In this document: positions 24,544 through 60,989 of the stretch, piece by piece | Numbering within the stretch: position 1 is the first letter of the stretch | Layout of the letters: each line of letters opens with the position of its first letter | From: Shigella phage Silverhawkium | Sequence record: MK562505 | DNA: 64,000 bases | Reading direction: 5' to 3' (one strand) | Notes under the pieces: generated by a model | Database searches by the model: none | What the model was told of the DNA's origin: nothing | Seen by the model: the letters and a program-made list of their open reading frames with translations, nothing else | Made by a program: the position numbers and the translations under genes

Positions 24544-27243
24544 ATGGAAAATGTAGATTTTGAAAACTTGCATTTAGTTGGTGATACAGAAACTGATGGG
24601 TTGTTGCTTGAGTTCACAAAAGCTCACGTTATGGCCTTTGCAGATTACAAAGATGACAGTGACGAACCTCCTGTTTGGGTATTCACTGATGAACCTATCC
24701 TTGGTCACAAGTATACCAAATACATTAAAGGTGGCTTACGAGAAGGGGTTGAGTTTGCTTTAAAGGCAAAAAGACTTTGCATCCACAATGGTCTGGGTTA
24801 TGACTGGTGGGTGTTTAACCACATTGCACCTGATTTATGGAACTTTGATAATCCAAAGTGTAAACCTTGGGGTGATTTCTTCCAAGACTCACTTATTCAG
24901 TCTCGCGTTCAGTGGATGGATAGGCCAACACCAAAAGGCTACAAAGGTGCTCACGGATTGGCTGCGTGGGGTGCTCGTGTTGGTGTTCGTAAACCTGAGA
25001 TTGAAGAGTGGGGTGTATGGAATGCAGAAATCCTTAACCGTGTTGTTGAAGATATCCGCATTAACGCCAAAGCAAAAAGGGCTATGGATAATGAGTATCT
25101 AAAACTGAAGAAGTGTGGTGTTGATACTTATGAAACATACATGAGAGCCAAGGAAACATCTTTTTGGATGAGTCAGCAAGCAATCAATGGTTGGAAAGCT
25201 GATATCAACAAAATGAAAAGTTGTATCAAAGAGTTGGATAAGATGACTTCTGACTTAGCTTCTGAGGTAGAACCATTCTTACCACCAACTATCAAAACAA
25301 AAGGTAAAGTTACTGGTGAAGAATTTGCCAAGTCATGGAATGAGTACGTAGAGACATTTGGTGGTGCAGATGGTTTGAAGAGAATCACAAAGTACCCTAA
25401 GACAAAATATCGTCAGCAGGTTCGTAATGGTGAGATGCAAAGTTACCCTATCAAGCCATATGGAAAACCAACTACAAAGATTTTCAGCATTGAAAAAAGA
25501 AATTGCTACACTCCAACTAACACCGTTACTGGAGAAGAGTACAAAGAAGGTTTTGTAGCGATGAAAGATGCTCGTGCAGTTTGCAATGAGTTAAATGCTA
25601 AAGTGGATAAGAAGTGCAAAGATTGGAAGCCAGTTAAGACGGTGAAGATTGTGAAGTACTACAACAACCATGTAGTTAATCACTTTGGTCTTGAATCAAG
25701 TCGATACACAGGGTTGATTGATGCACCGTATACACCTATTGAGTTTGAAGTGTCACGAATGACTCAGGTGGCTGTTGTTAAGGATTACTTGAAGACTTTA
25801 GGTTGGATTCCTGATGATTGGAATTACAAGAAGGATTCAGATGGTCGTCCTGTGAAAGTTTGTCGATTCAAAGACAATAAGAAAATGATTCGCAAGCACC
25901 CAAAATGGGATGAAATGGTTGAGCGTTGTGGATTGAACTATGTTGAGCACGAAGGTATTCAGTACATTGAGCATAACTGGTCTGTCAAAAAGTACACAGA
26001 CTTGCTTGAGCCTTGCTTGATTCGTACTTCACCAAAACTGACTGAATCATCTTATGACACCATTGAAGGTGAACTTGGACAGAAGATTGCGAAGTACTAT
26101 ACTTTGATGCACCGACGTAGAACTATTGAGAACTCAAAAGATGATGAAAAGGGCTGGTTGAACCAGATTCGTCCAGATGGTCGTTTGAGTGCTGGTGCAA
26201 TGGTGTTTGGTACATCTACTGGACGTATGACGCAGTATGGTATTGTAAACGTACCTTCTGGTGCTGCCGTTTATGGGGAACCAATGAGGGCAGTTTGGAT
26301 TTGTGAAGAAGGGACAAACGTAGTCTCTGTAGATATGAACTCTGCACAGCTTGTTCTTCTTTGTAACTTTATGGGTGATAAGGATTTCACAAAGGCTGTA
26401 ACTGAAGGTAAAGAAGAGATTGAGTTTGTTCGTCAAGAAGATGGTCGTTACTATTGCAAACACTTTGATGAATACTTGAACCCTGAAGTTGACAAGTATC
26501 TTCGTTATGACCATGAAAATGACCTGTATGTAGTTTACTCAGGTACTGATGCTCATACACTGAACAGTATCTACTTTAGTTTGAATGATGAGCAGGATAT
26601 CTTGACTTGTCGTATGACTCAGGATGAAAATCTTCTTCACGAAATTAGTAAGGGTCGTAAGAAAGCTAAGAATGGTATCTATGCACTGTTGTTCGGTGCA
26701 GGTGATGAAAAGTTTGCTAAGACCATTAAAGCAGCTACCACTCAGGAAGGTGCATTAACTAAACAGACTTACTTTGTGCGTTTGCCGAAGATTAAGAAAC
26801 TGTTAGACAACTTAGAAGCCGACTTTAAAGCTACTAAGAAAGCACTGGAAGAGGTGTTTGGTAAAACTGCTGCTATCGCTAAAGGTGGTTTTGTTAAGGT
26901 TGCTGGTGCTTGGTTGTGGTGTAAATCTCCACATAAACTTTTGAACTATCTGTTGATGGGTTCAGAAGCACAAGTACAGAATGAAGCAATCAACCTTGCT
27001 TGTCGTCGTATGATTGATGAAGGGTTAATGAAACTGAATGGTCGTAAACCAGCTATTGGTGCTCGCCTACTCTGTGCTTACCACGATGAAACAAGCTGGG
27101 AATGTCCAGAGAGCATGACAGCAGAAGTCAAAGCAGTAACTGACTGGTACTACGGGCAAGCTTCTAAGAACTTAGGTCTTAAAAAAGATACCCTTGTAAC
27201 TGGTGCTGGTAAGGTTGGTAAAAGCTGGCTGGAAGTTCACTAA
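24544..27243 (+). CDS. DNA polymerase, family A, with 3'-5' exonuclease domain
   Basis: 899 aa; exo motif LVGDTETDGL; motif A-like VDMNSAQLV, motif B-like KNGIYALLFGAG, motif C-like YHDE; GAGGGAG RBS. Confidence 0.9.
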   Translation: MENVDFENLHLVGDTETDGLLLEFTKAHVMAFADYKDDSDEPPVWVFTDEPILGHKYTKYIKGGLREGVEFALKAKRLCIHNGLGYDWWVFNHIAPDLWNFDNPKCKPWGDFFQDSLIQSRVQWMDRPTPKGYKGAHGLAAWGARVGVRKPEIEEWGVWNAEILNRVVEDIRINAKAKRAMDNEYLKLKKCGVDTYETYMRAKETSFWMSQQAINGWKADINKMKSCIKELDKMTSDLASEVEPFLPPTIKTKGKVTGEEFAKSWNEYVETFGGADGLKRITKYPKTKYRQQVRNGEMQSYPIKPYGKPTTKIFSIEKRNCYTPTNTVTGEEYKEGFVAMKDARAVCNELNAKVDKKCKDWKPVKTVKIVKYYNNHVVNHFGLESSRYTGLIDAPYTPIEFEVSRMTQVAVVKDYLKTLGWIPDDWNYKKDSDGRPVKVCRFKDNKKMIRKHPKWDEMVERCGLNYVEHEGIQYIEHNWSVKKYTDLLEPCLIRTSPKLTESSYDTIEGELGQKIAKYYTLMHRRRTIENSKDDEKGWLNQIRPDGRLSAGAMVFGTSTGRMTQYGIVNVPSGAAVYGEPMRAVWICEEGTNVVSVDMNSAQLVLLCNFMGDKDFTKAVTEGKEEIEFVRQEDGRYYCKHFDEYLNPEVDKYLRYDHENDLYVVYSGTDAHTLNSIYFSLNDEQDILTCRMTQDENLLHEISKGRKKAKNGIYALLFGAGDEKFAKTIKAATTQEGALTKQTYFVRLPKIKKLLDNLEADFKATKKALEEVFGKTAAIAKGGFVKVAGAWLWCKSPHKLLNYLLMGSEAQVQNEAINLACRRMIDEGLMKLNGRKPAIGARLLCAYHDETSWECPESMTAEVKAVTDWYYGQASKNLGLKKDTLVTGAGKVGKSWLEVH

Positions 27244-27303
27244 TAGTGTTGACAAGGTGCTCATGGAAGAGTACCTTATACTATATCTTGTATAGGAGGT
27301 CAT

Positions 27304-27522
27304 ATGACACTTTCAGAGATTGAAGTACAATTGCAGTGTGCAGGTTATTCTCAAAAAGAGATTGAAGGTATGTTTATTGCTCTTTGCAGTGGTTCTAGAA
27401 ATTTGAAGGTAAACCCTGAAGTTCTGCGTAAAGTAGATATCTTTATTGCTGGTGGGAAAATTGCAAAAGATAAGACAGGCTACTTAAAAGGTGAGCACGT
27501 AGATATTGAGAGTTTACTATGA
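27304..27522 (+). CDS. hypothetical protein (72 aa)
   Basis: ORF with AGGAGG RBS. Confidence 0.4.
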   Translation: MTLSEIEVQLQCAGYSQKEIEGMFIALCSGSRNLKVNPEVLRKVDIFIAGGKIAKDKTGYLKGEHVDIESLL

Positions 27523-27728
27523 GCCACCGTGGAAGAACACATCTGGCAATGATGAAAGATGCTTCAAAGGAGACTATTAAGAACCGTAAGCAGAAGTTGT
27601 TTGAGAGGATGAACAGACTCATTGATAACACTTCTCTTTCTGGTAGTGAGAAGGTTTTCTTGAAAGGGAATCTGAAAAGTATTGCACAGGAACTTATTGA
27701 CATTGAATTTTGGAGACACCAAAAATGA
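27519..27728 (+). CDS. hypothetical protein (69 aa)
   Basis: translationally coupled ORF. Confidence 0.4.
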   Translation: MSHRGRTHLAMMKDASKETIKNRKQKLFERMNRLIDNTSLSGSEKVFLKGNLKSIAQELIDIEFWRHQK

Positions 27729-27976
27729 GCAGTAGAGAAGAAGAAGCTTTAGCAATCTTCAAGAATGAAGACAAATCAATAGCTTTTGTCTCAGAGGCTT
27801 GGTGCAGAGGTTTGGGATATGATTGGTATCTTTTCTTATGCGCTAAGAAAGATGTTAAACCAGTTGATGAAACCCGATTCAAAGAACTGTATAATATCTG
27901 CCAAGAGGGTTATGAAGAACATTACAAAGGTTCTTTGAATCCTGTAAATTCAAAAGCTTCAGATTTATTTTATTGA
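27725..27976 (+). CDS. hypothetical protein (about 83 aa)
   Basis: start set at MSSREEE. Confidence 0.4.
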   Translation: MSSREEEALAIFKNEDKSIAFVSEAWCRGLGYDWYLFLCAKKDVKPVDETRFKELYNICQEGYEEHYKGSLNPVNSKASDLFY

Positions 27977-27986
27977 GAGGTTTAAA

Positions 27987-28232
27987 ATGTTAAAATTATT
28001 GATACCAGCTTTAGCAGTCATACTGGTTGGGTGCAACCCTTCTTATGAGAATAAGGATGCTTCTTACAGACTTCCTCCAGAAATGCAAGACTGCAAGATT
28101 TATAAACTTAATGGTGATGCCATTAGCAGGGATGTTATTGTAGTTCGCTGCCCAAATTCTCAGACTACAACTTCTTACAAGTATGGAAAGAATAGTCAGT
28201 CACACACTACAGTTTTTGATGGAGGATATTGA
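27987..28232 (+). CDS. putative lipoprotein
   Basis: 81 aa; signal peptide ending in lipobox LVGC (MLKLLIPALAVILVGC). Confidence 0.5.
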   Translation: MLKLLIPALAVILVGCNPSYENKDASYRLPPEMQDCKIYKLNGDAISRDVIVVRCPNSQTTTSYKYGKNSQSHTTVFDGGY

Positions 28233-28233
28233 T

Positions 28234-28437
28234 ATGCAGGTTCTGGTAAACTTTATCTATAAGTATGAAAACATCTTCAGCACTATGACTGAAGGTCAAC
28301 GCAATCCAGTTATCCCACGAGAAGGGGATACTGTTGAGATTAATGATTGGAACCACAGAGTTGCAGGGGTCAAGCATAAACTTAAAGATGATTATGACCA
28401 CCAAGTTGTAAATGTGTATTTAGAAGGTAAGTGGTAA
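28234..28437 (+). CDS. hypothetical protein (67 aa)
   Basis: ATG 1 nt after the lipoprotein stop, GGAGG RBS. Confidence 0.4.
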   Translation: MQVLVNFIYKYENIFSTMTEGQRNPVIPREGDTVEINDWNHRVAGVKHKLKDDYDHQVVNVYLEGKW

Positions 28438-28531
28438 TGAGAATCTTACATATCATCTCTGAAGATTTTGGAGGGTGCTCTTGGCACTCATTTTTCACAA
28501 AAGGTTGTCTAGCTTGTGAGGCACGTAATAA

Positions 28532-29632
28532 ATGACAATTCTGTACAAACAAAATAAAGATGGCTCTTTTAACGTCTGGTCATGTGTTGCTGTAGGTGAC
28601 AAAGTCGTCACAACTTATGGTAAAGAAAATGGCAAGATGATGTTTGAAGAGTACACAGCAGAACCTAAGAACATCGGTAAAAAGAATGAGCGTAATGCTG
28701 AACAGCAAGCTCTCTTTGAAGTTGCTGCTAAGTACAAGAAGCAGGTTGACCGTAAAGGGTATGCTTACACAAAATCTGAAGCAGAGAATGTTGAAAAGGT
28801 TGGTGTACAGCTTGCTCAGGATGCTTCCAAGATAAGTCACAAGAAGTATCTGGTATTCCCTGCCGATGCTCAACCTAAACTTGACGGGGTTCGTTGCAGG
28901 ATTTCAAGAGATGCTGACTCAGAAAGTTTTACAGCATATTCTCGTGAGAACACGGTATACAACATTCCTGTAGAGTTGATTCCTGATGTTCTTCTTATGC
29001 TGAAGCTTCATAAAGATGTTGAAGATTTCGACGGTGAGATTTATGCTCATGGTTGGGACTTGGAAGATATTGTGTCTATGATTAAGAATGCTGACAATCC
29101 AGACCGTCACCTTCTTAAATTCTACTGGTATGATATCTGTGACAAGACTAAATCTTGGCCTGAGCGTCGTGAAGTTATTGATAATTCACCAATCGTTGAA
29201 CTCGGTGATGCTTGCAGGGTTGTACCTGTTCAGACAATCCGTGTTAACTCTTGGGAAGAATTTGATAATGCTCATGACAATTGGGTTAAACTCAAGTTTG
29301 AAGGGGCAATGTATCGGTCAATCTCACCAGATTCGTTCTATGAGTGTGGTCACCGTTCGTACTTCTTGATTAAACACAAGAAGATGCACACGCAGGAGTT
29401 CATAGTAACTGCTGTCAAGACTGATAAACGTGGTCACGGTAAGTTCGTTGTAGAGACCCTTCCTAACGTCTTTGTAGATGTTTCATGGAAAACTACCCAT
29501 GAGAAGAAGCAGCATCTTGCTGAACATCCTGAAGAGTTTATCGGGAAGCCTTTAACGGTTCAGTTCCAGAAGATGACTCGTAAGGGGTCTTTACAGTTCC
29601 CTGTTGGGCTTGTTATACGAGATTATGAATAG
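28532..29632 (+). CDS. ATP-dependent DNA ligase
   Basis: 366 aa; adenylation motif I KLDGVR. Confidence 0.8.
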   Translation: MTILYKQNKDGSFNVWSCVAVGDKVVTTYGKENGKMMFEEYTAEPKNIGKKNERNAEQQALFEVAAKYKKQVDRKGYAYTKSEAENVEKVGVQLAQDASKISHKKYLVFPADAQPKLDGVRCRISRDADSESFTAYSRENTVYNIPVELIPDVLLMLKLHKDVEDFDGEIYAHGWDLEDIVSMIKNADNPDRHLLKFYWYDICDKTKSWPERREVIDNSPIVELGDACRVVPVQTIRVNSWEEFDNAHDNWVKLKFEGAMYRSISPDSFYECGHRSYFLIKHKKMHTQEFIVTAVKTDKRGHGKFVVETLPNVFVDVSWKTTHEKKQHLAEHPEEFIGKPLTVQFQKMTRKGSLQFPVGLVIRDYE

Positions 29633-29640
29633 AGGTTAGC

Positions 29641-29790
29641 ATGTTTAGCGCAATTATCCTGTTTGTTTTTGTTGTTTTATCATTATCTTACTTCATAAGT
29701 AAACTGATAAGCATAACATACAAATCAGCCTTAGCCCTTACTCTGTTATCATTTGTAGTAAATGCAGTAGTCAGAGAATTTTTAATATAA
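29641..29790 (+). CDS. small hydrophobic membrane protein (49 aa), absent from the ORF track
   Basis: hand translation MFSAIILFVFVVLSLSYFISKLISITYKSALALTLLSFVVNAVVREFLI; GAGG RBS. Confidence 0.35.
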   Translation: MFSAIILFVFVVLSLSYFISKLISITYKSALALTLLSFVVNAVVREFLI

Positions 29791-29795
29791 AGTTG

Positions 29796-29823
29796 TTGAC
29801 ATAGAAAATTTGGTGAGTATACT
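29796..29823 (+). promoter_or_regulatory. sigma70-like promoter (-35 TTGACA, -10 TATACT)
   Basis: consensus hexamers with 16-nt spacer; transcript would run into the repeat modules. Confidence 0.55.
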
Positions 29824-29854
29824 GAGCAGCATAAACCAACGGGTACTCACCAGC

Positions 29855-30111
29855 ATCACTTAAGAGTCTTTGAAAAGGATTTTTAAGTGATATTTGGTAT
29901 GGTATGGTACGGTTCGGTGGTGTATGGTTTGGTTCGGTGGTGTAAGGTGTGGTCCGGTAAAGTATGGGTAGTTAGTCTCAGCTACATTAAAATGAGACTT
30001 ACCTTTTTAAAAGGTCTTGAAGAGGGTCTTTTAATAAGGTAGGGTAAGGTTAGGTAAGGTATGGTTGGGTTAGGTATGGGTGGATGGTAGTAGCCACGTT
30101 AAAAATCTACC
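29855..30111 (+). repeat. noncoding modular repeat region 1: two units of hairpin + phased GGTNN array + hairpin
   Basis: hairpin atcacttaa/ttaagtgat (29855-29891); 15 in-phase pentamers (29896-29970); hairpin agtctc/gagact (29974-29999); second array (30038-30088); hairpin ggtag/ctacc (30086-30111); no ORF of 60 aa or more. Confidence 0.8.
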
Positions 30112-31600: not shown

Positions 31601-31981
31601 ATGAAAAAGTTACTTGTTGGTGTCATTGCTCTTGGTATGAGTTTTAGTGCAGTGGCTATGAAGATGCCTGAAGCAAACTTTAGTGGTGTTGCTTTAGAAT
31701 CTTGTAAGATTGTACAGAAAATTGCATCAAATGCTGGAGAGTTAACTAAACCGTTGTCTGCTACGACTGTTCAAGAAATGACTGATAAGATGGTTGACTA
31801 CAACTACCATTTTATGGGAGATTACTATGACAGATTAGCAGATGAGATGGTCACTCAGAACGTTGACCTTCTTGATAGTAAAGGTATTGAGACTGTAGAA
31901 GATGTGAAAGACAACTTTATGCGTGAGTCTTTCAAAGGTGTTCAATACTTTATTGAAAATCGTCACTGCATGGGTTTATAA
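31601..31981 (+). CDS. putative secreted/periplasmic protein
   Basis: 126 aa; N-terminal signal peptide MKKLLVGVIALGMSFSAVA; AGGAGG RBS. Confidence 0.5.
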   Translation: MKKLLVGVIALGMSFSAVAMKMPEANFSGVALESCKIVQKIASNAGELTKPLSATTVQEMTDKMVDYNYHFMGDYYDRLADEMVTQNVDLLDSKGIETVEDVKDNFMRESFKGVQYFIENRHCMGL

Positions 31982-36254: not shown

Positions 36255-38618
36255 TTAAGCAGTTCTAACCCAAGCCATCAGTTTGATGTAACTGTTTAAC
36301 ACACTGAATGCAGAACCAGAACCAGTTGCACCAGTATTACCACTCACTGTATGGTTGTGAGCACCAATACCAACGTTGTGTGCATGGTTACCAGTTGTGT
36401 TGGTTACACCTGTCCAAGTTCTTGATGCGTGGAAATCAACTGGAGCACCATAAGTGAAGTTAGAACCTGTGAAGCCGTGTGAAGCCTGACTACCACCCAT
36501 AACAAACGCACCACTCGCAGTGTAGAATGCACCGTTATCACTTCTGAACCAACCAAACACACCAGAGATTTCCATGTTACCCCTATCATGAGCGTGGTTA
36601 CCTGCTGCCGTTGTTCCTTTAGTACCATAGTCGAACGTTGAAGTTGTACCAGAGAAGCTATGAGTGTGTGAAGGAATATGCCCTACAGACAGTGCTACAG
36701 AGTCTGCACCACCAACCTGCTTGATATCTGAACCGTTTGCTGCACCAATTCTGATAGTTCTTCCTGCACCCTCTGACAAATAAGTCCAAGTAGTGCCTGG
36801 GAAAGCAGTATTTGGGTTTGTGTTTGCTGCAAAGAATGTTACAATCCCAATTGGATAAATCTTCTTAAGGTCTGTTGAATCTGTTACAGCAGCAGCAATC
36901 TTCTGGTCAGTTTCAGCTTTAGTGTATGCACCAATATCTGAAGGTGTAGGTTTGTTCTTCTCTGTATAGAATTGGGTGAATGGTTCTTCAAAACCAAGAC
37001 CATCTCTTGAAGACCTATACCACACTCCACCATTTTTATAGTTGAATTTCAACTGTGCAGATGGTGTTGAGCTTGCCCCTTGATATAGCTGTAGGACAAG
37101 GTTAGTAGAGCCTCCAGAAGAAGTTGTTACATTGTAAAGTCCTGTTTTAGCATTCCAAGCAATACCATCTCCACCTCCAGCTTCAGTACCTGTACCAGTT
37201 GCACTAGCCAGCATGAATCTTGCATTTGCAGAGCTTTGAGTAAAGTATCTTGAATCTAGGTTAGACCAGTCAGAAGGTTGCACCTGTCCAGAAATTGCCA
37301 GAGTGGTATTAAGTTCTGCTGCTGAACCAATGCTAAGACCTTTACCTGTCTTGTAGTTATACAGGTTTAAGATATCACTGGCATCACCGTTACCAATATA
37401 CCACTTGCTGGTTCCATCAGCAGCCTTACCTCTAATGAACAATGACGTGGCAGTTTTTGCTTGCAACGCAAGGGCTTCACCATCAGAGTTGATAATCTGC
37501 TGTACAGAGAATGTGTTAACAGCATTAGTTCTTGCTAGGACGTTTGTCAGAGAACTTGGAACATATCTTGAATCAAAGTTAGCAAAGTCACTTGGTTTTA
37601 CTTGACCAGTTACATTAATTGCTTTATTGAAAGAAAACTCAGTAGCAATCTTAAAAGCAACGTTAGTCATCTGGTTAACCAGAGCAATCTCAGACTGAGT
37701 ACCATCTGCTTGACCAACATACCAAGTCCCTGTATTAGCACTATTGTACCCACGGATAAACAATGCAGCATTCTCTGTAGCTGCTCTTAAGTTTAGGGCA
37801 TTGCTATCTGCAATAACGTAAGTCTTACCATTAAAATTGTTAACACCTACAAAGTTGTTATTTGCAGACAGTCTTGCAAATCTCTGGTCAGCAGCAGTTT
37901 GAGTAAAGTATCTTGCATCTAGGTTAGACCAGTTGTTAGGCTGGACTTGACCATTAATTTCCAAGTTCTTATCAAAACTAGCAGAGTTTGTACCAAGAGT
38001 CAATGTTGCACCCTTGCTATTAACTAAGGTTACATCAGAGCTTGAAGTCAGGTTACCAACTGTGAATCTCAAAGCATTTGAAGAATCTCTTGCTTCAATA
38101 AATGCACCACCATCAGGTAGGATACTTTTCAGAGTCAGACCAACACCATTGATATTAATAATTTGTCTTGCTAAGAAAGTGTTTTCAGTTGCTTTCATAG
38201 CATATCTTGCATCATTCTCTGCATTTGTTCTCATGCCAAGTTCATTAGGAGTTGGTTTGTTCAAAGTGTGATAAACATTTGCAGACCTTGTAGCATCATT
38301 AACAGTAAGTCTCAAACCATTTGCATTAATTCTAAAAGTTTTTGCAACATCACCAAGAATAACCTCAGATGCACCTGTTGGGTCAAGTAAATCATTCCCA
38401 CCATAAGTTAACTTCACAATACCAAGATTACCTGTCATAGTCCCACCAGTTAATTGCAGGAATCTTTGAAGGTTAAAAGAGGCTAGGAAGTTTGCATAGG
38501 TCATTTTACGGTCTTCGTCACCTAACATGTCAGACCTTTTAATAATTCTTAGGTGAAGCAAATCTTCTGAGCGAACTGTATCAATACTGTTTAGTTCACT
38601 TAGCTTATATTCAGCCAT
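36255..38618 (-). CDS. tail fibre protein with His-rich (HxH) C-terminal tip
   Basis: 787 aa; C-terminal HSFSG...GNHAHD...GNHAHNVGIGAHNHTVSG motifs; C-terminus ...WVRTA. Confidence 0.7.
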   Translation of the reverse strand: MAEYKLSELNSIDTVRSEDLLHLRIIKRSDMLGDEDRKMTYANFLASFNLQRFLQLTGGTMTGNLGIVKLTYGGNDLLDPTGASEVILGDVAKTFRINANGLRLTVNDATRSANVYHTLNKPTPNELGMRTNAENDARYAMKATENTFLARQIININGVGLTLKSILPDGGAFIEARDSSNALRFTVGNLTSSSDVTLVNSKGATLTLGTNSASFDKNLEINGQVQPNNWSNLDARYFTQTAADQRFARLSANNNFVGVNNFNGKTYVIADSNALNLRAATENAALFIRGYNSANTGTWYVGQADGTQSEIALVNQMTNVAFKIATEFSFNKAINVTGQVKPSDFANFDSRYVPSSLTNVLARTNAVNTFSVQQIINSDGEALALQAKTATSLFIRGKAADGTSKWYIGNGDASDILNLYNYKTGKGLSIGSAAELNTTLAISGQVQPSDWSNLDSRYFTQSSANARFMLASATGTGTEAGGGDGIAWNAKTGLYNVTTSSGGSTNLVLQLYQGASSTPSAQLKFNYKNGGVWYRSSRDGLGFEEPFTQFYTEKNKPTPSDIGAYTKAETDQKIAAAVTDSTDLKKIYPIGIVTFFAANTNPNTAFPGTTWTYLSEGAGRTIRIGAANGSDIKQVGGADSVALSVGHIPSHTHSFSGTTSTFDYGTKGTTAAGNHAHDRGNMEISGVFGWFRSDNGAFYTASGAFVMGGSQASHGFTGSNFTYGAPVDFHASRTWTGVTNTTGNHAHNVGIGAHNHTVSGNTGATGSGSAFSVLNSYIKLMAWVRTA

Positions 38619-38663
38619 TTGTAAATCCTCTTATTAGGGGCTGTGTAGCCCCTTTAAAAATAA

Positions 38664-39839
38664 TTAAGCAGTTCTCTTCCAGACATATACAACATAAGAT
38701 GGTTGTTCAATATTAAATGCTTGTCCAGAACCAAATGCACCAGTTGTACCTGAGTGTGTATGCTCAGAAGACTGTACAGTTACTGTACCAGAGTGGCTAT
38801 GAGCACCAATTGCAACACTATGACTGTGAGCACCAATATACACAGAGTGGTTGTGGTTACCTGCTGCTGAAGAGTTGACGTTGAATGTATGTGTATGAAC
38901 ACCGTCAAAATCAGTGTAGGAAGCATTACCAACACCAGCATCAGAAGAAGCTGTGATACCATTAGAGCCGGGTCTGTCATTACCACGCAACGGGATTCTG
39001 TGACTGTGATTACCAGCACTACTTACAGAACCATTAACATTGTGAGCGTGATTACCACCGTCAGTTGTTGCCTTAGAACCGTAGTCGTAGCTTGAGGTGT
39101 TCTTGCTACCATAATCAAAACTTGAAATACTGACCGTTGCTCCGTGAGTATGTCCACCACCAGTTAAATACACCGAGTGTGTGTGACTTGGGATGTTGTT
39201 CTGTGTAAGTGAAACCGTAGAAGAACCAAATACAGACTCTACAGGTCTTTCATCAGAATCGTAACCAACCAGTGACCTTCCTTTAGAAACTAACTCCCAA
39301 GTACCACCACAAAGTAAATATGTAGCTGGGTTTGCAGGGTTAACTGATAAGTGAATAGTACCAATTGGGTAGCTATTCTGAATAGCTCTATACAGAGCAT
39401 TAACAGCCCTTGCACTAGCATATTTGTCAGCATCTTCAGAGTAAGAGTTTGTGTAAGTCCAGTTTTGGATATTTCCAAGACCAACTTGAATTTTAGTAAC
39501 GTTGTGAGGGTTATTCTTGTCATCAATGTGAGCTTGAATAAGTGCATTCACTTCATCACTAGAAAGGATTCCTAAGTTTGTTCTTGCCTCTTCAACACTA
39601 ACCACATCTGATAAGTTATTTGCCGCAACTAATTGCAGGGCGTTAATAACACTACTCAGACCAACTTGAGACTTTGTAACTCCATGAGGGTTATTTTTAA
39701 GTGATGCGTGAGGTGCAAGTAACTGCTCTAATGTGCAGCGTTTATCCTCAATACCTTGCTTTAAGTGAAAGATATCACTCATATCAATTGGCAAGGAAGC
39801 TTGAGGTAACGCACTAATTTGAATTTCACCAACTGCCAT
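38664..39839 (-). CDS. second tail fibre protein, paralogous C-terminal tip
   Basis: 391 aa; HTHS, GNHAHNV, GNHSH, HTHTF, GNHNHS, GAHSHS repeats; C-terminus ...VWKRTA. Confidence 0.7.
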   Translation of the reverse strand: MAVGEIQISALPQASLPIDMSDIFHLKQGIEDKRCTLEQLLAPHASLKNNPHGVTKSQVGLSSVINALQLVAANNLSDVVSVEEARTNLGILSSDEVNALIQAHIDDKNNPHNVTKIQVGLGNIQNWTYTNSYSEDADKYASARAVNALYRAIQNSYPIGTIHLSVNPANPATYLLCGGTWELVSKGRSLVGYDSDERPVESVFGSSTVSLTQNNIPSHTHSVYLTGGGHTHGATVSISSFDYGSKNTSSYDYGSKATTDGGNHAHNVNGSVSSAGNHSHRIPLRGNDRPGSNGITASSDAGVGNASYTDFDGVHTHTFNVNSSAAGNHNHSVYIGAHSHSVAIGAHSHSGTVTVQSSEHTHSGTTGAFGSGQAFNIEQPSYVVYVWKRTA

Positions 39840-59545: not shown

Positions 59546-59621
59546 TGGAGTATCGGAAGGGACTCGAACCCTCATAAACCTGTTTTGCAGACAGGAACAT
59601 ATCCATTTCTGTCACCGATAC
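59546..59621 (-). tRNA. tRNA-Cys (anticodon GCA)
   Basis: manual cloverleaf; anticodon loop CTGCAAA; T-loop TTCGAGT; CCA encoded. Confidence 0.7.
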
Positions 59622-59627
59622 ATAATT

Positions 59628-59720
59628 TGGAGGAAGATACCAGACTTGAACTGGTACGCCGATTTCTCGGTTACTGGCAGTTTAGCAAACTGCTCCCTTA
59701 CCTGTTAGGGTTAATCTTCC
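59628..59720 (-). tRNA. tRNA-Ser (anticodon GCT), long variable arm
   Basis: anticodon loop TTGCTAA; type II variable arm; T-loop TTCAAGT. Confidence 0.65.
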
Positions 59721-59722
59721 AG

Positions 59723-60457
59723 TTATTTGTTAAGTGCATCTTTCATTTCTGGTGTAGAGATAGAGTCAATAACACCAGTCTTACAAGCATCATCAAACCA
59801 GTCTGGTAAGACATTTGCAAGAAAACCGTTAATGTTTGTCTTAAGATACTCAGCCATCAATGCTACTTCATCAGCAATCATCTGTGTGACTTCTGAAGCG
59901 TATGCAGTAATCTTTGACATACCTTCATTAATCGCTGTAACAGCTTGTGAGGCTAAATCTTCGATTGTATCAAGCCCTTGGTCAATTGCATCTTGTAAGT
60001 CGCTTAGAACGCCGTTTACAGCGTCTATGGAGGTGTTTATAATCTCCATAGCTTTGTTACCATACTCAGTAGCAACTCCCATAATCCCACTGAATGGCGT
60101 ACAACCAACTTGTTCACCTGCTGCTCCCATTACATTAGAGTAGCCTTTTGCCACCTGCATTCGTTGAGAGAACTCATCTACAGATTTCTGACCATACTCA
60201 GTCAGTGTAGTGGTTGTTGAAGTTGTACTGCCAAGACTTGTTGTGAAGCTACTTAAGAGTGCTGCTGTTAATCCAGCCGCAATAAGCTTATCTTGCACAG
60301 TCGGGTCTGTTACGGAACTAATAGAGTTTACTAATGACTGAGAGGCAGCAATTGTACCACCAAGGACTGCTGCACCAGTAATAAGAGGGTTTGAGAAACC
60401 ATTACCAGTTTTAAGGAGATTAAAAATCTCTTTACTTTGTTCTGTCATCTCTTTCAT
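59723..60457 (-). CDS. membrane protein embedded in the tRNA array
   Basis: 245 aa from MKEMTEQ (TAGGTG RBS); two hydrophobic segments, Ser/Thr-rich stretch, acidic helical C-terminal domain. Confidence 0.5.
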   Translation of the reverse strand: MKEMTEQSKEIFNLLKTGNGFSNPLITGAAVLGGTIAASQSLVNSISSVTDPTVQDKLIAAGLTAALLSSFTTSLGSTTSTTTTLTEYGQKSVDEFSQRMQVAKGYSNVMGAAGEQVGCTPFSGIMGVATEYGNKAMEIINTSIDAVNGVLSDLQDAIDQGLDTIEDLASQAVTAINEGMSKITAYASEVTQMIADEVALMAEYLKTNINGFLANVLPDWFDDACKTGVIDSISTPEMKDALNK

Positions 60458-60473
60458 TATGCACCTATAAAGT

Positions 60474-60546
60474 TGGTAGCCCATCGGGATTTGAACCCTG
60501 TTCTCATGTTTTTCAGACAAGCGCTTTAACCATATAAGCTAATTGA
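60474..60546 (-). tRNA. tRNA-like element, isotype unresolved (possibly aberrant)
   Basis: acceptor pairing and TTCAAAT T-loop present; no canonical anticodon stem or D-stem found. Confidence 0.3.
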
Positions 60547-60547
60547 G

Positions 60548-60624
60548 CTATTAAATTGGGGTGACCTACGGGAATCGAACCCGTATAGACCATGTTCACA
60601 GCATGGGTCATTATCCATTTATGA
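60548..60624 (-). tRNA. tRNA-His (anticodon GTG)
   Basis: anticodon stem CCATG/CATGG, loop CTGTGAA; T-loop TTCGATT. Confidence 0.7.
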
Positions 60625-60664
60625 TAAGGCCACATTTAAGGACTCTCGTAAGAACCCTTAGAAG

Positions 60665-60740
60665 TGGCAGCAGTATAAGGATTTGAACCTTAATCTTTCA
60701 GCTTCAGAGGCTGGAGCATTGCCAGTTATGCTATACTGCT
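60665..60740 (-). tRNA. tRNA-Gln (anticodon CTG)
   Basis: anticodon loop CTCTGAA with one stem mismatch; T-arm TAAGG/CCTTA. Confidence 0.55.
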
Positions 60741-60746
60741 AATATT

Positions 60747-60817
60747 TGGTACTCCATATCGGATTCGAACCGATACATAACACAGATTTTAAATCTGGCC
60801 TCTCTGCCAATTGGAGT
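60747..60817 (-). tRNA. short tRNA-like gene, anticodon unresolved (possibly TAA)
   Basis: good acceptor and T-arm (ATCGG-TTCGAAT-CCGAT); anticodon region folds non-canonically. Confidence 0.4.
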
Positions 60818-60827
60818 AATGGAGCCT

Positions 60828-60903
60828 TGGCGGGGGATGATGGAATTGAACCATCTTCTTCGATTTCAAAGACCGAGGTTTTAACCTTGTAAACTAATCC
60901 CCT
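60828..60903 (-). tRNA. tRNA-Gln (anticodon TTG)
   Basis: anticodon stem TCGGT/ATCGA, loop CTTTGAA; A1-C72 mismatch. Confidence 0.6.
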
Positions 60904-60911
60904 ATTAAATT

Positions 60912-60988
60912 TGGTGCAGAATAGAGGATTCGAACCCCTAACAAACAACTTCGTAGATTGCTGTTCTATCCATTTGAACTAATTCTGC
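60912..60988 (-). tRNA. tRNA-Arg (anticodon ACG)
   Basis: perfect acceptor GCAGAAT/ATTCTGC; anticodon loop CTACGAA. Confidence 0.6.
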
Positions 60989-60989
60989 A

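What the first reader, a model, noticed from the sequence alone, without database searches (positions are those of the whole stretch)
27987..28232. Early-region lipoprotein: candidate superinfection-exclusion or receptor-masking factor
An 81-aa ORF next to the DNA polymerase has a signal peptide ending in a lipobox (LVGC). Phage lipoproteins in early regions can block the phage's own receptor to prevent superinfection and progeny inactivation.
Basis: inference. Interest (0 to 1): 0.45.

Follow-up and report, generated by a model that had tools for sequence, protein, structure and literature searches.

The report
Widespread uncharacterised early phage lipoprotein
The 81-codon gene is a real, conserved lipoprotein of a FelixO1-like phage and belongs to a large phage family of unknown function, but nothing links it to the known receptor-blocking lipoproteins, so the proposed role is untested and its receptor-masking form is unlikely.

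Summary
Window 27987-28232 (+) encodes 81 aa with a textbook lipoprotein signal (K3, hydrophobic core, lipobox LVGC, Cys16). It is the only credible lipoprotein signal in all six frames of the 64 kb.

The window is a Mooglevirus (FelixO1-like myovirus), and the protein is identical to Shigella phage Silverhawkium gp40, annotated 'hypothetical'.

The gene is a member of a large, uncharacterised family (phrog_902):
- 634 clusters at 50% identity and 596 phage genomes, in Ounavirinae, Vibrio T5-like phages, Vequintavirinae, T4-like Aeromonas phages, jumbo phages and Acinetobacter phages.
- In 150 diverse members the lipid-attachment Cys and two further Cys (36 and 55) are invariant.

It is not the spanin; a close relative carries a separate i-/o-spanin pair. 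It is not related to T5 Llp or to Cor beyond the signal peptide. It has no match among solved folds.

An Llp-style receptor plug is disfavoured:
- It is not next to the tail-fibre genes and does not co-vary with them (95-97% identity where the fibre is 57-80%).
- Published work gives LPS core as the Ounavirinae receptor.
- Relatives in other enterobacterial phages carry Asp at +2, which predicts inner-membrane retention.

My best guess, at low confidence, is a periplasm-tethered binder of a conserved envelope component, most plausibly exclusion after adsorption. This is a moderately interesting lead.

The parts
27975..27980 (+). Shine-Dalgarno GAGAGG, 6 nt upstream of the ATG. The upstream ORF's TGA stop (27974-27976) overlaps it.
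   Evidence: Sequence read. An RBS is annotated at the equivalent place in Citrobacter phage Maleficent.
27987..28232 (+). Coding sequence of the 81-aa lipoprotein precursor (stop TGA at 28230-28232). Identical to Shigella phage Silverhawkium gp40.
   Evidence: phrog_902 at E=8.5e-17. 634 homologous clusters.
27987..28031 (+). Signal peptide, residues 1-15 (MLK + LLIPALAVILVG).
   Evidence: The signal peptides of solved lipoproteins FlgP and BamD are the only PDB sequence matches to the family profile.
28023..28034 (+). Lipobox L13-V14-G15-C16. The Cys16 codon TGC is at 28032-28034 (predicted diacylglyceryl attachment and signal peptidase II cleavage site).
   Evidence: Cys invariant in 150/150, G/A/S at -1 in 150/150, Leu at -3 in 112/150. 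Pfam LPAM_1 is hit by 26 of 150 members.
28035..28070 (+). Variable tether, residues 17-28 (NPSYENKDASYR). Asn at +2 predicts Lol sorting to the outer membrane in enterobacteria.
   Evidence: High column entropy. The +2 residue varies across the family: N, S, T, E and D each 20-24 of 153 scored.
28071..28214 (+). Conserved compact domain, residues 29-76. Predicted strands are at 37-42, 50-54, 60-66 and 69-75; a fifth short strand at residues 19-22 lies in the tether.
   Evidence: AlphaFold2 models with mean pLDDT 68.2 and 68.8. Conservation profile.
28092..28094 (+). Cys36 codon (D-C-K motif), the first of the invariant mature-domain cysteine pair.
   Evidence: Invariant in 150/150. It lies just before strand 37-42.
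28149..28151 (+). Cys55 codon (V-V-R-C-P-N-S), the second invariant cysteine. Inferred disulfide partner of Cys36 across the base of the strand 2-strand 3 hairpin.
   Evidence: Invariant in 150/150. The disulfide itself is inferred.
28140..28190 (+). Most conserved polar stretch: V52 V53 R54 C55 P56 N57 S58 x T60 x T62 ... G67 K68. Candidate binding surface.
   Evidence: Each of V52, R54, P56, S58, T60, T62, G67 and K68 is kept in at least 80% of 150 members from unrelated phage groups.
24544..27243 (+). DNA polymerase gene, the start of the same-strand tightly packed gene run (context).
28532..29632 (+). DNA ligase gene downstream in the same run (context).

Best explanation
What it is (well supported): a phage gene, translated together with the replication genes, whose product is exported by Sec. 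It is predicted to be lipid-modified on Cys16 and cleaved by signal peptidase II. [quoted passage not shown] The mature protein is 65 aa: a tether of about 12 residues followed by a small beta domain. The domain is probably stapled by a Cys36-Cys55 disulfide made in the periplasm. It belongs to a very large stand-alone gene family of phages that infect Gammaproteobacteria and has no characterised member.

How it most likely works (inferred, low confidence): the tethered domain uses its invariant polar face (R-C-P-N-S-x-T-x-T ... G-K) to bind an envelope component that is conserved across hosts and is reachable from the periplasm. It does not bind the phage's own receptor. The most plausible consequence is protection of the infected cell against secondary attack at a step after adsorption, such as wall penetration or genome transfer across the periplasm. 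That would make it a functional analogue of T4 Spackle/Imm rather than of T5 Llp.

Shown: the ORF, the signal, family conservation, synteny, lack of homology to known families, and lack of co-variation with the fibre. Inferred: lipidation, localisation, the disulfide, timing, target and phenotype.
For: ORF and lipobox.

Family size and spread: 596 phage records and 634 clusters at 50% identity. C16, C36 and C55 are invariant in 150 members, with a conserved polar motif.

Synteny between polymerase and ligase in Maleficent and FelixO1. Genes are tightly packed, and promoter- and terminator-like sites are no more frequent than in shuffles.

In nine unrelated phage groups the only shared gene in the neighbourhood is the lipoprotein itself, always among small genes of unknown function.

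The lipoprotein tracks the replication core, not the fibre. It is 96% identical to Maleficent, the polymerase and ligase are 93%, and the fibre is 58%.

LPS core is the reported receptor of this phage group.

The Asp+2 variants in E. coli, Enterobacter, Erwinia and Yersinia phages suggest that the anchor membrane is not critical. That fits a target within the periplasm.

There is precedent for early periplasmic exclusion proteins that act after adsorption: T4 Spackle inhibits the gp5 tail lysozyme (PMC7677548).
Against: There is no direct evidence for any phenotype, partner or localisation. No member of the family has been studied: every source name is 'hypothetical', 'phage protein' or 'lipoprotein', and no paper mentions the family identifiers.

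The structure models are of only moderate confidence (pLDDT 68), so the 'new fold' and the disulfide geometry are tentative.

The conserved motif could be purely structural, leaving variable loops (residues 40-51) to recognise different partners.

The +2 rule is validated only for Enterobacterales.

Early timing is inferred from gene order, not from transcript data.
Confidence: 0.35

Rival explanations
1. Host-envelope manipulation or counter-defence unrelated to exclusion. The tethered domain would bind and inhibit a conserved host periplasmic or envelope factor, for example a peptidoglycan hydrolase, an envelope-stress or lipoprotein/LPS-transport component, or an envelope-sensing defence system. 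This would keep the cell intact or productive until lysis.
For: The same facts that point to a conserved, receptor-independent target: invariant polar motif across phages of Vibrio, Acinetobacter, Aeromonas, Erwinia and Escherichia hosts; a stand-alone gene with no conserved partner gene; placement among early-type genes; both +2 anchor types.
Against: No similarity to any known inhibitor family or to any defence or anti-defence model (PADLOC, Pfam and NCBIfam all negative). No fold match to the known periplasmic lysozyme inhibitors, which are in the PDB. Purely inferential.
Confidence: 0.25
2. One reading: an Llp/Cor-type lytic-conversion lipoprotein that binds the periplasmic face of the phage's own outer-membrane receptor and switches it off, preventing superinfection and loss of progeny on debris.
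For: [quoted passage not shown] Asn at +2 predicts outer-membrane sorting. The residue 40-51 loops are variable and could confer specificity. One chromosomal homologue sits beside a cI-like repressor gene, a position typical of lysogenic-conversion genes.
Against: Similarity to Llp or Cor is confined to the signal peptide. No fold match. The gene is not at the receptor-binding-protein locus, where such genes usually sit; the fibres are at 36255-39839 on the other strand. No co-variation with the fibre. The receptor of this phage group is LPS core, which a periplasmic lipoprotein cannot plug. In the Vibrio T5-like phage JSF12 the homologue lies beside thymidylate synthase and DHFR genes, with no tail gene in the 8-kb stretch examined. 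Asp+2 variants occur in other enterobacterial phages.
Confidence: 0.12
3. A lysis function: either the outer-membrane spanin subunit or a periplasmic regulator of lysis timing.
For: It is the only lipoprotein signal in the 64-kb window. There is a weak PHROG match to Rz-like spanins (E=0.2, residues 3-42).
Against: The flanking ORFs have no transmembrane i-spanin features. The close relative Maleficent has a separate overlapping i-spanin/o-spanin pair at 86.0-86.6 kb, and its endolysin is at 68.4 kb; both lie outside the part of the genome that the window covers. The gene lies in the replication block, not a lysis cassette. The mature part is predicted to be a folded beta domain with only 4 Pro, unlike o-spanins.
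Confidence: 0.06
4. A spurious or decaying ORF with no function.
For: None beyond its small size and 'hypothetical' annotation.
Against: Conserved from FelixO1 to Mooglevirus at the same locus. 634 clusters with invariant cysteines and a conserved motif. Good Shine-Dalgarno.
Confidence: 0.01

Closest known systems
T5 Llp (lytic conversion lipoprotein; PDB 7QJF, 8A60)
   Same: A small phage lipoprotein precursor (77 vs 81 aa) with a lipobox signal and one disulfide in the mature part. Llp is made early and faces the periplasm.
   Different: No sequence similarity outside the signal peptide. No fold match. Not encoded next to the receptor-binding protein. The host receptor here is LPS core rather than a TonB-dependent transporter. 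The family is spread over many phage groups with different hosts.
Cor (T1, phi80, N15, HK022; phrog_1119)
   Same: A small phage lipoprotein associated with exclusion through an outer-membrane receptor.
   Different: The PHROG match has E=0.28 and covers residues 1-21 only, i.e. the signal peptide. Cor-type genes of small siphoviruses sit at the receptor-binding locus; this gene does not.
T4 Spackle (Sp)
   Same: An early-expressed protein that works in the periplasm. It gives exclusion after adsorption by inhibiting the incoming tail lysozyme (PMC7677548). This is the kind of receptor-independent mechanism that the evidence here favours.
   Different: From my own knowledge, Spackle is a soluble, helical, non-lipidated protein. 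No sequence match of the family profile to any solved structure, Spackle included. Analogy only.
o-spanins (lambda Rz1 and equivalents)
   Same: A small outer-membrane lipoprotein encoded by a phage of a Gram-negative host.
   Different: No adjacent or overlapping i-spanin gene. The close relative Maleficent carries a separate annotated spanin pair elsewhere. Predicted to be a folded beta domain rather than Pro-rich and unstructured. Located in the replication block.
phrog_902 (PHROGs v4, unknown function)
   Same: Direct family membership: E=8.5e-17 over residues 1-76.
   Different: Nothing differs, but the family carries no functional annotation.

Membership tests
Bacterial-type lipoprotein precursors (PROSITE PS51257 / Pfam LPAM_1 class) | Basic n-region, uncharged hydrophobic h-region, lipobox [LVI][ASTVI][GAS]C with the Cys at residues 15-35 | tested here: met
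   K3, LLIPALAVILV, LVGC, Cys16. The Cys is invariant and -1 is G/A/S in 150/150 homologues. LPAM_1 is matched by 26 of 150 members.
Bacterial-type lipoprotein precursors (PROSITE PS51257 / Pfam LPAM_1 class) | Actual diacylglyceryl modification, signal peptidase II cleavage and membrane anchoring | not testable with these tools
   Needs globomycin sensitivity, palmitate labelling and fractionation.
T5 Llp family | Homology of the mature domain to Llp | tested here: not met
   hhalign of the 150-sequence profile against Llp aligns 18 columns, all within the signal peptide. The Llp sequence was verified against PDB 8a60_B and 7qjf_A.
T5 Llp family | Llp-like fold | tested here: not met
T5 Llp / Cor-type receptor-blocking lipoproteins | Gene at the receptor-binding-protein locus and co-varying with it | tested here: not met
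   The fibres lie at 36255-39839 on the minus strand, about 8 kb away. The lipoprotein is 95-97.5% identical where the fibre is 57-80% identical.
T5 Llp / Cor-type receptor-blocking lipoproteins | The phage uses an outer-membrane protein receptor that can be plugged from the periplasm | tested here: not met
   Literature only: LPS core is reported or proposed for Felixounavirus and Mooglevirus. A second, protein receptor has not been excluded for this phage.
T5 Llp / Cor-type receptor-blocking lipoproteins | Expression blocks adsorption of the parent phage | not testable with these tools
   Needs an adsorption and plating-efficiency experiment.
Cor (phrog_1119) | Profile match over the mature protein | tested here: not met
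   E=0.28, residues 1-21 only.
o-spanin | Gene embedded in, overlapping or adjacent to an i-spanin gene within the lysis genes | tested here: not met
   The neighbouring ORFs lack a transmembrane segment. A separate i-/o-spanin pair is annotated at 86.0-86.6 kb in Maleficent.
T4 Spackle | Sequence or fold homology to Spackle | tested here: not met
   No PDB sequence match beyond lipoprotein signal peptides. No fold match.
phrog_902 | Significant profile match over most of the protein | tested here: met
   E=8.5e-17, residues 1-76.
Pfam PF16225 | Match to the Pfam model | tested here: inconclusive
   The precomputed label PF16225.11 is attached to every homologue. hmmscan of the query and of 150 members against the Pfam-A copy here never lists it. 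No paper mentions it.

The most novel reading that the evidence does not exclude
phrog_902 could be a previously unrecognised, very widespread class of phage periplasmic lipoproteins with its own small disulfide-stapled beta fold. It would act on one conserved envelope target of Gammaproteobacteria. That would be a receptor-independent exclusion or envelope-protection mechanism shared by FelixO1-like, T5-like, T4-like, rV5-like and jumbo phages.
Probability: 0.3. Interest if true: 0.65.

Novelty: new variant of a known kind. Interest (0 to 1): 0.42.

Why it matters
Small early lipoproteins are one of the few ways a virulent phage can remodel the envelope of the cell it has just entered. Only Llp and Cor are understood, and both work on protein receptors.

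This family is far more widespread. It is found in hundreds of sequenced phages of at least seven unrelated groups, is kept at one locus from FelixO1 to Mooglevirus, and also occurs on Acinetobacter plasmids. It is found in phages whose reported receptor is LPS.

If it does exclude or protect, it must do so by a different route and probably through a conserved host component. That would matter for phage-cocktail design, because FelixO1-like phages are common in Salmonella, E. coli and Shigella cocktails. It could also provide a small, portable envelope-targeting module.

If it has no such role, it is still a clean, cheap target for assigning a function to a top-ranked 'unknown' PHROG.

Tried and rejected
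Searches that found nothing:
- Pfam, NCBIfam and PADLOC scans of the protein gave nothing meaningful. The weak Zn_ribbon_InsA hit (E about 0.01-0.1, below cutoff) reflects the Cys/Thr-rich stretch and was rejected.
- The precomputed PF16225 label could not be reproduced.
- PDB sequence search matched only lipoprotein signal peptides.
- No Rfam match on either strand at 26500-30000.
- Literature searches for PF16225 and phrog_902 found no paper. A Felixounavirus + lipoprotein search returned six papers, none on this gene.

Checks that gave no signal:
- Promoter- and terminator-like sites are at chance level, so there is no sign of a private promoter.
- Base composition is even, so there is no sign of recent import.
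- A second structure prediction on the mature domain alone did not raise confidence (pLDDT 68.8 vs 68.2).

Limited or failed searches:
- The search for related loci with the broad alignment failed for lack of a conserved stretch.
- A degenerate DNA pattern for VVRCPNSxT[ST]T over 185,579 genomes gave one true hit (Hylemonella) and one chance hit. The pattern was too strict to measure how common the family is in bacteria.

Ideas rejected:
- The o-spanin idea, because of the separate spanin pair in Maleficent.
- A conserved partner gene, after all-against-all comparison of neighbourhoods.

Full report
**1. The observation**

Window 27987-28232 (+) is an ATG-started ORF of 81 codons: MLKLLIPALAVILVGC|NPSYENKDASYRLPPEMQDCKIYKLNGDAISRDVIVVRCPNSQTTTSYKYGKNSQSHTTVFDGGY. 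It is preceded by GAGAGG at 27975-27980, six bases before the ATG. The upstream ORF stops at 27976, and the next ORF starts at 28234, one base after the TGA. The N-terminus has one basic residue, an 11-residue hydrophobic core and the lipobox L-V-G-C with Cys16.

I applied a PROSITE-PS51257-like rule to every possible ORF start of at least 35 aa in all six frames of the 64 kb. It returned only this ORF and one antisense ORF with an acidic N-terminus. The signal is therefore not something this sequence produces by chance.

One detail of the finding needs correction. The gene is not directly beside the polymerase (24544-27243). Three small ORFs lie in between, and it sits between the polymerase and the DNA ligase (28532-29632).

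**2. What genome this is**

The 8 kb around the gene matches FelixO1-like myoviruses of the genus Mooglevirus. The best match is Shigella phage KPS64 at about 90% DNA identity, and 277 records match in all. The protein is identical to Shigella phage Silverhawkium gp40 (QBP33127.1), annotated 'hypothetical protein'. Citrobacter phage Maleficent annotates its orthologue as 'hypothetical protein; membrane lipoprotein', so the lipoprotein character has already been noticed in a public record.

FelixO1 itself has the gene as ORF91 at the same position between polymerase and ligase. The run from polymerase through the small ORFs and ligase to DHFR and thymidylate synthase is on one strand and tightly packed. 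Promoter- and terminator-like sites are no more frequent than in shuffled sequence. I therefore infer co-expression with the replication genes, but I have no transcript data. There is no Rfam match on either strand, and base composition is even.

**3. The family**

tblastn finds the protein in 596 phage records. About 196 of these are Ounavirinae-level matches of at least 60% identity. The rest include:
- Vibrio T5-like phages (Demerecviridae JSF12, and a large set of 114-kb Vibrio phages)
- Escherichia, Erwinia and Yersinia jumbo phages (Asteriusvirus, Eneladusvirus)
- a Vequintavirinae phage of Enterobacter
- Acinetobacter Obolenskvirus and Saclayvirus
- T4-like Aeromonas phages

A profile search of 1.84 billion cluster representatives gives 634 clusters with E<=0.001 and 85 with E<=1e-10. 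PHROGs places the protein in phrog_902, function unknown (E=8.5e-17). All names given by sources are 'hypothetical', 'phage protein' or 'lipoprotein'.

A precomputed Pfam label (PF16225.11) is attached to every member. hmmscan of the query and of 150 members against the Pfam-A copy available here never reports it. I therefore treat it as unverified.

In an alignment of 150 diverse members (32-94% identical to the query), three columns are invariant: C16, C36 and C55. Residues P30, D35, V52, R54, P56, S58, T60, T62, G67 and K68 are kept in at least 80%. The consensus reads Y-x-L-P-x-E-L-x-D-C-K-x-Y ... V-V-R-C-P-N-S-x-T-x-T ... G-K. Variable regions are the tether (residues 17-28), the loops at residues 40-51, and the C-terminus. 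A subfamily (28 of the sequences scanned) has a second Cys pair (C-G-K-N-C), and many members carry a C-terminal V-V-I-D-G-V-x-Y extension.

Two invariant cysteines in the mature part of an exported protein point to a periplasmic disulfide. In the models they flank the hairpin formed by strands 37-42 and 50-54. The disulfide itself is inferred.

**4. Structure**

AlphaFold2 gave the same five-stranded beta arrangement in both runs, at moderate confidence. With the 150-sequence alignment, mean pLDDT was 68.2 and pTM 0.46. With a mature-domain alignment, pLDDT was 68.8.

No solved structure resembles it:
- Foldseek against the PDB: best E 2.2.
- Profile search of PDB sequences: only the signal peptides of FlgP and BamD.
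- BFVD: only members of the same family.

**5. What it is not**

It is not the spanin. Neither neighbour has a transmembrane segment. Maleficent carries an overlapping i-spanin/o-spanin pair at 86.0-86.6 kb, and its endolysin is at 68.4 kb; both lie outside the part of the genome that the window covers.

It is not an Llp relative. The Llp sequence was checked against PDB 8a60_B and 7qjf_A, and a profile comparison aligns only 18 signal-peptide columns.

It is not a Cor relative. The phrog_1119 match has E=0.28 and covers residues 1-21 only.

PADLOC and NCBIfam give no match.

**6. Tests of the receptor-masking idea**

(a) Locus. Exclusion lipoproteins of small siphoviruses lie at the receptor-binding-protein locus (PMC11990801). 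Here the fibre genes are at 36255-39839 on the other strand. In the Vibrio T5-like phage JSF12 the homologue lies near the thymidylate synthase and DHFR genes.

(b) Co-variation. Lipoprotein identity compared with long tail fibre identity, both relative to the window:

| Phages | Lipoprotein identity | Long tail fibre identity |
|---|---|---|
| Sf13, Sf15, Sf17, Sf18, KPS64 | 97.5% | 78-79% |
| Sf14, Sf16 | 96.3% | 79.9% |
| Michonne, Mordin, Maleficent (Citrobacter) | 95.1% | 58% |
| mistaenkt (E. coli K-12) | 95.1% | 57.3% |

Polymerase and ligase are 93% identical to Maleficent. The gene therefore tracks the replication core, not the adsorption apparatus.

(c) Receptor. LPS core was shown experimentally to be the receptor for four Felixounavirus phages (PMC13196588). 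It is also the working model for Sf14-type and Henu12 Moogleviruses. A protein on the periplasmic face cannot plug it, and PMC11990801 argues that inactivating abundant glycan receptors during lytic growth would be futile.

(d) Breadth. The same polar motif is kept in phages of Vibrio, Acinetobacter, Aeromonas, Erwinia and Escherichia.

(e) Anchor. The window protein has Asn at +2, which predicts outer-membrane sorting under the enterobacterial +2 rule (established knowledge). Homologues in E. coli Asteriusvirus, Enterobacter Certrevirus, and Erwinia and Yersinia jumbo phages have Asp at +2, which predicts inner-membrane retention. Overall, 20 of 153 scored sequences have Asp at +2. With a tether of only about 12 residues, a common target would have to be reachable from either membrane.

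None of these points is decisive alone. Together they make an Llp-type plug unlikely.

**7. Context elsewhere**

I compared 6-10 kb neighbourhoods from nine unrelated phage groups all-against-all. The lipoprotein is the only shared gene. It always lies among small genes of unknown function, often close to replication or nucleotide-metabolism genes. It is therefore a stand-alone, mobile, single-gene module.

A strict DNA-pattern scan of 185,579 bacterial genomes found one true chromosomal copy, in Hylemonella gracilis. It lies beside a cI-type HTH gene, a truncated ComM-like gene and an ABC-3C defence gene, which looks like an integrated element. Acinetobacter baumannii plasmids of about 112 kb also carry a member.

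**8. Most likely mechanism**

Well supported: the protein is a Sec-exported, lipid-anchored, disulfide-stabilised periplasmic mini-protein made from the replication gene block.

Inferred: its conserved polar face binds an envelope component common to many Gammaproteobacteria. The payoff is most plausibly protection of the infected cell from secondary attack after adsorption, as T4 Spackle does by inhibiting the incoming tail lysozyme (PMC7677548). I give this about 0.35.

Rivals:
- Host-envelope manipulation or counter-defence: 0.25.
- A lysis role: 0.06.
- A non-functional ORF: 0.01.

The remainder is 'something else'.

**9. Novelty and verdict**

The gene and its lipoprotein signal are already in public records, and the family is catalogued but has no known function. 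It resembles Llp and Cor in format only and fails their membership tests, so I rate it a new variant of a known kind (early phage envelope lipoproteins).

It is not very surprising, but it is a well-defined, cheap and widely relevant experimental target. Interest 0.42.

Noticed in passing
window 31601-31981 (+): A 126-aa ORF begins MKKLLVGVIALGMSFSAVA, a Sec-type signal peptide without a lipobox. It is a second exported protein in the same plus-strand block and belongs to phrog_4332, function unknown.
   Followed up: partly
window 29641-29790 (+): A 49-aa very hydrophobic ORF lies directly after the ligase (phrog_22006). The Maleficent orthologue is noted as 'membrane protein'. The replication block therefore carries three envelope-targeted small proteins.
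   Followed up: partly
window 27243-27304, compared with L001 3424-3954 and L013 2288-2791: Maleficent and FelixO1 carry an HNH homing endonuclease gene just after the DNA polymerase. The window has none there, so this is a presence/absence polymorphism of a homing element.
   Followed up: no
L011 4568-4846 (Hylemonella gracilis ATCC 19624 contig): A true family member sits in a betaproteobacterial chromosome. Its neighbours are an HTH_3 repressor-like gene, a truncated Mg-chelatase/ComM-like gene, an Exo_endo_phos gene and an ABC-3C CTD10 gene. This is probably an integrated element or defence island.
   Followed up: partly
Protein clusters (P0018, P0215-P0218): Acinetobacter baumannii records of about 112 kb, some labelled as plasmids, encode a family member. 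They may be phage-plasmids.
   Followed up: no
All family members: The precomputed Pfam label PF16225.11 is attached to every homologue. hmmscan against the Pfam-A copy provided does not reproduce it for any of 150 members. This is a database inconsistency worth checking.
   Followed up: partly
Family alignment A2: There are subfamilies. 28 of the sequences scanned have an extra Cys pair (C-G-K-N-C) at the last turn. Many have a C-terminal V-V-I-D-G-V-x-Y extension, and a few have longer tails, including charged, possibly helical ones.
   Followed up: no
window 59546-63896 (-): A cluster of 24 tRNA genes, as in other FelixO1-like phages. It includes two tRNA-Met and three tRNA-Leu.
   Followed up: no
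L013 1422-1679 (FelixO1 ORF91): The FelixO1 orthologue is annotated from an upstream GTG (VNNKVKSCVKAMVALGVIFLAGC...). Several metagenomic gene calls also have N-terminal extensions of up to 46 aa (P0008, P0009). The start-codon calls for this gene are inconsistent across records.
   Followed up: no
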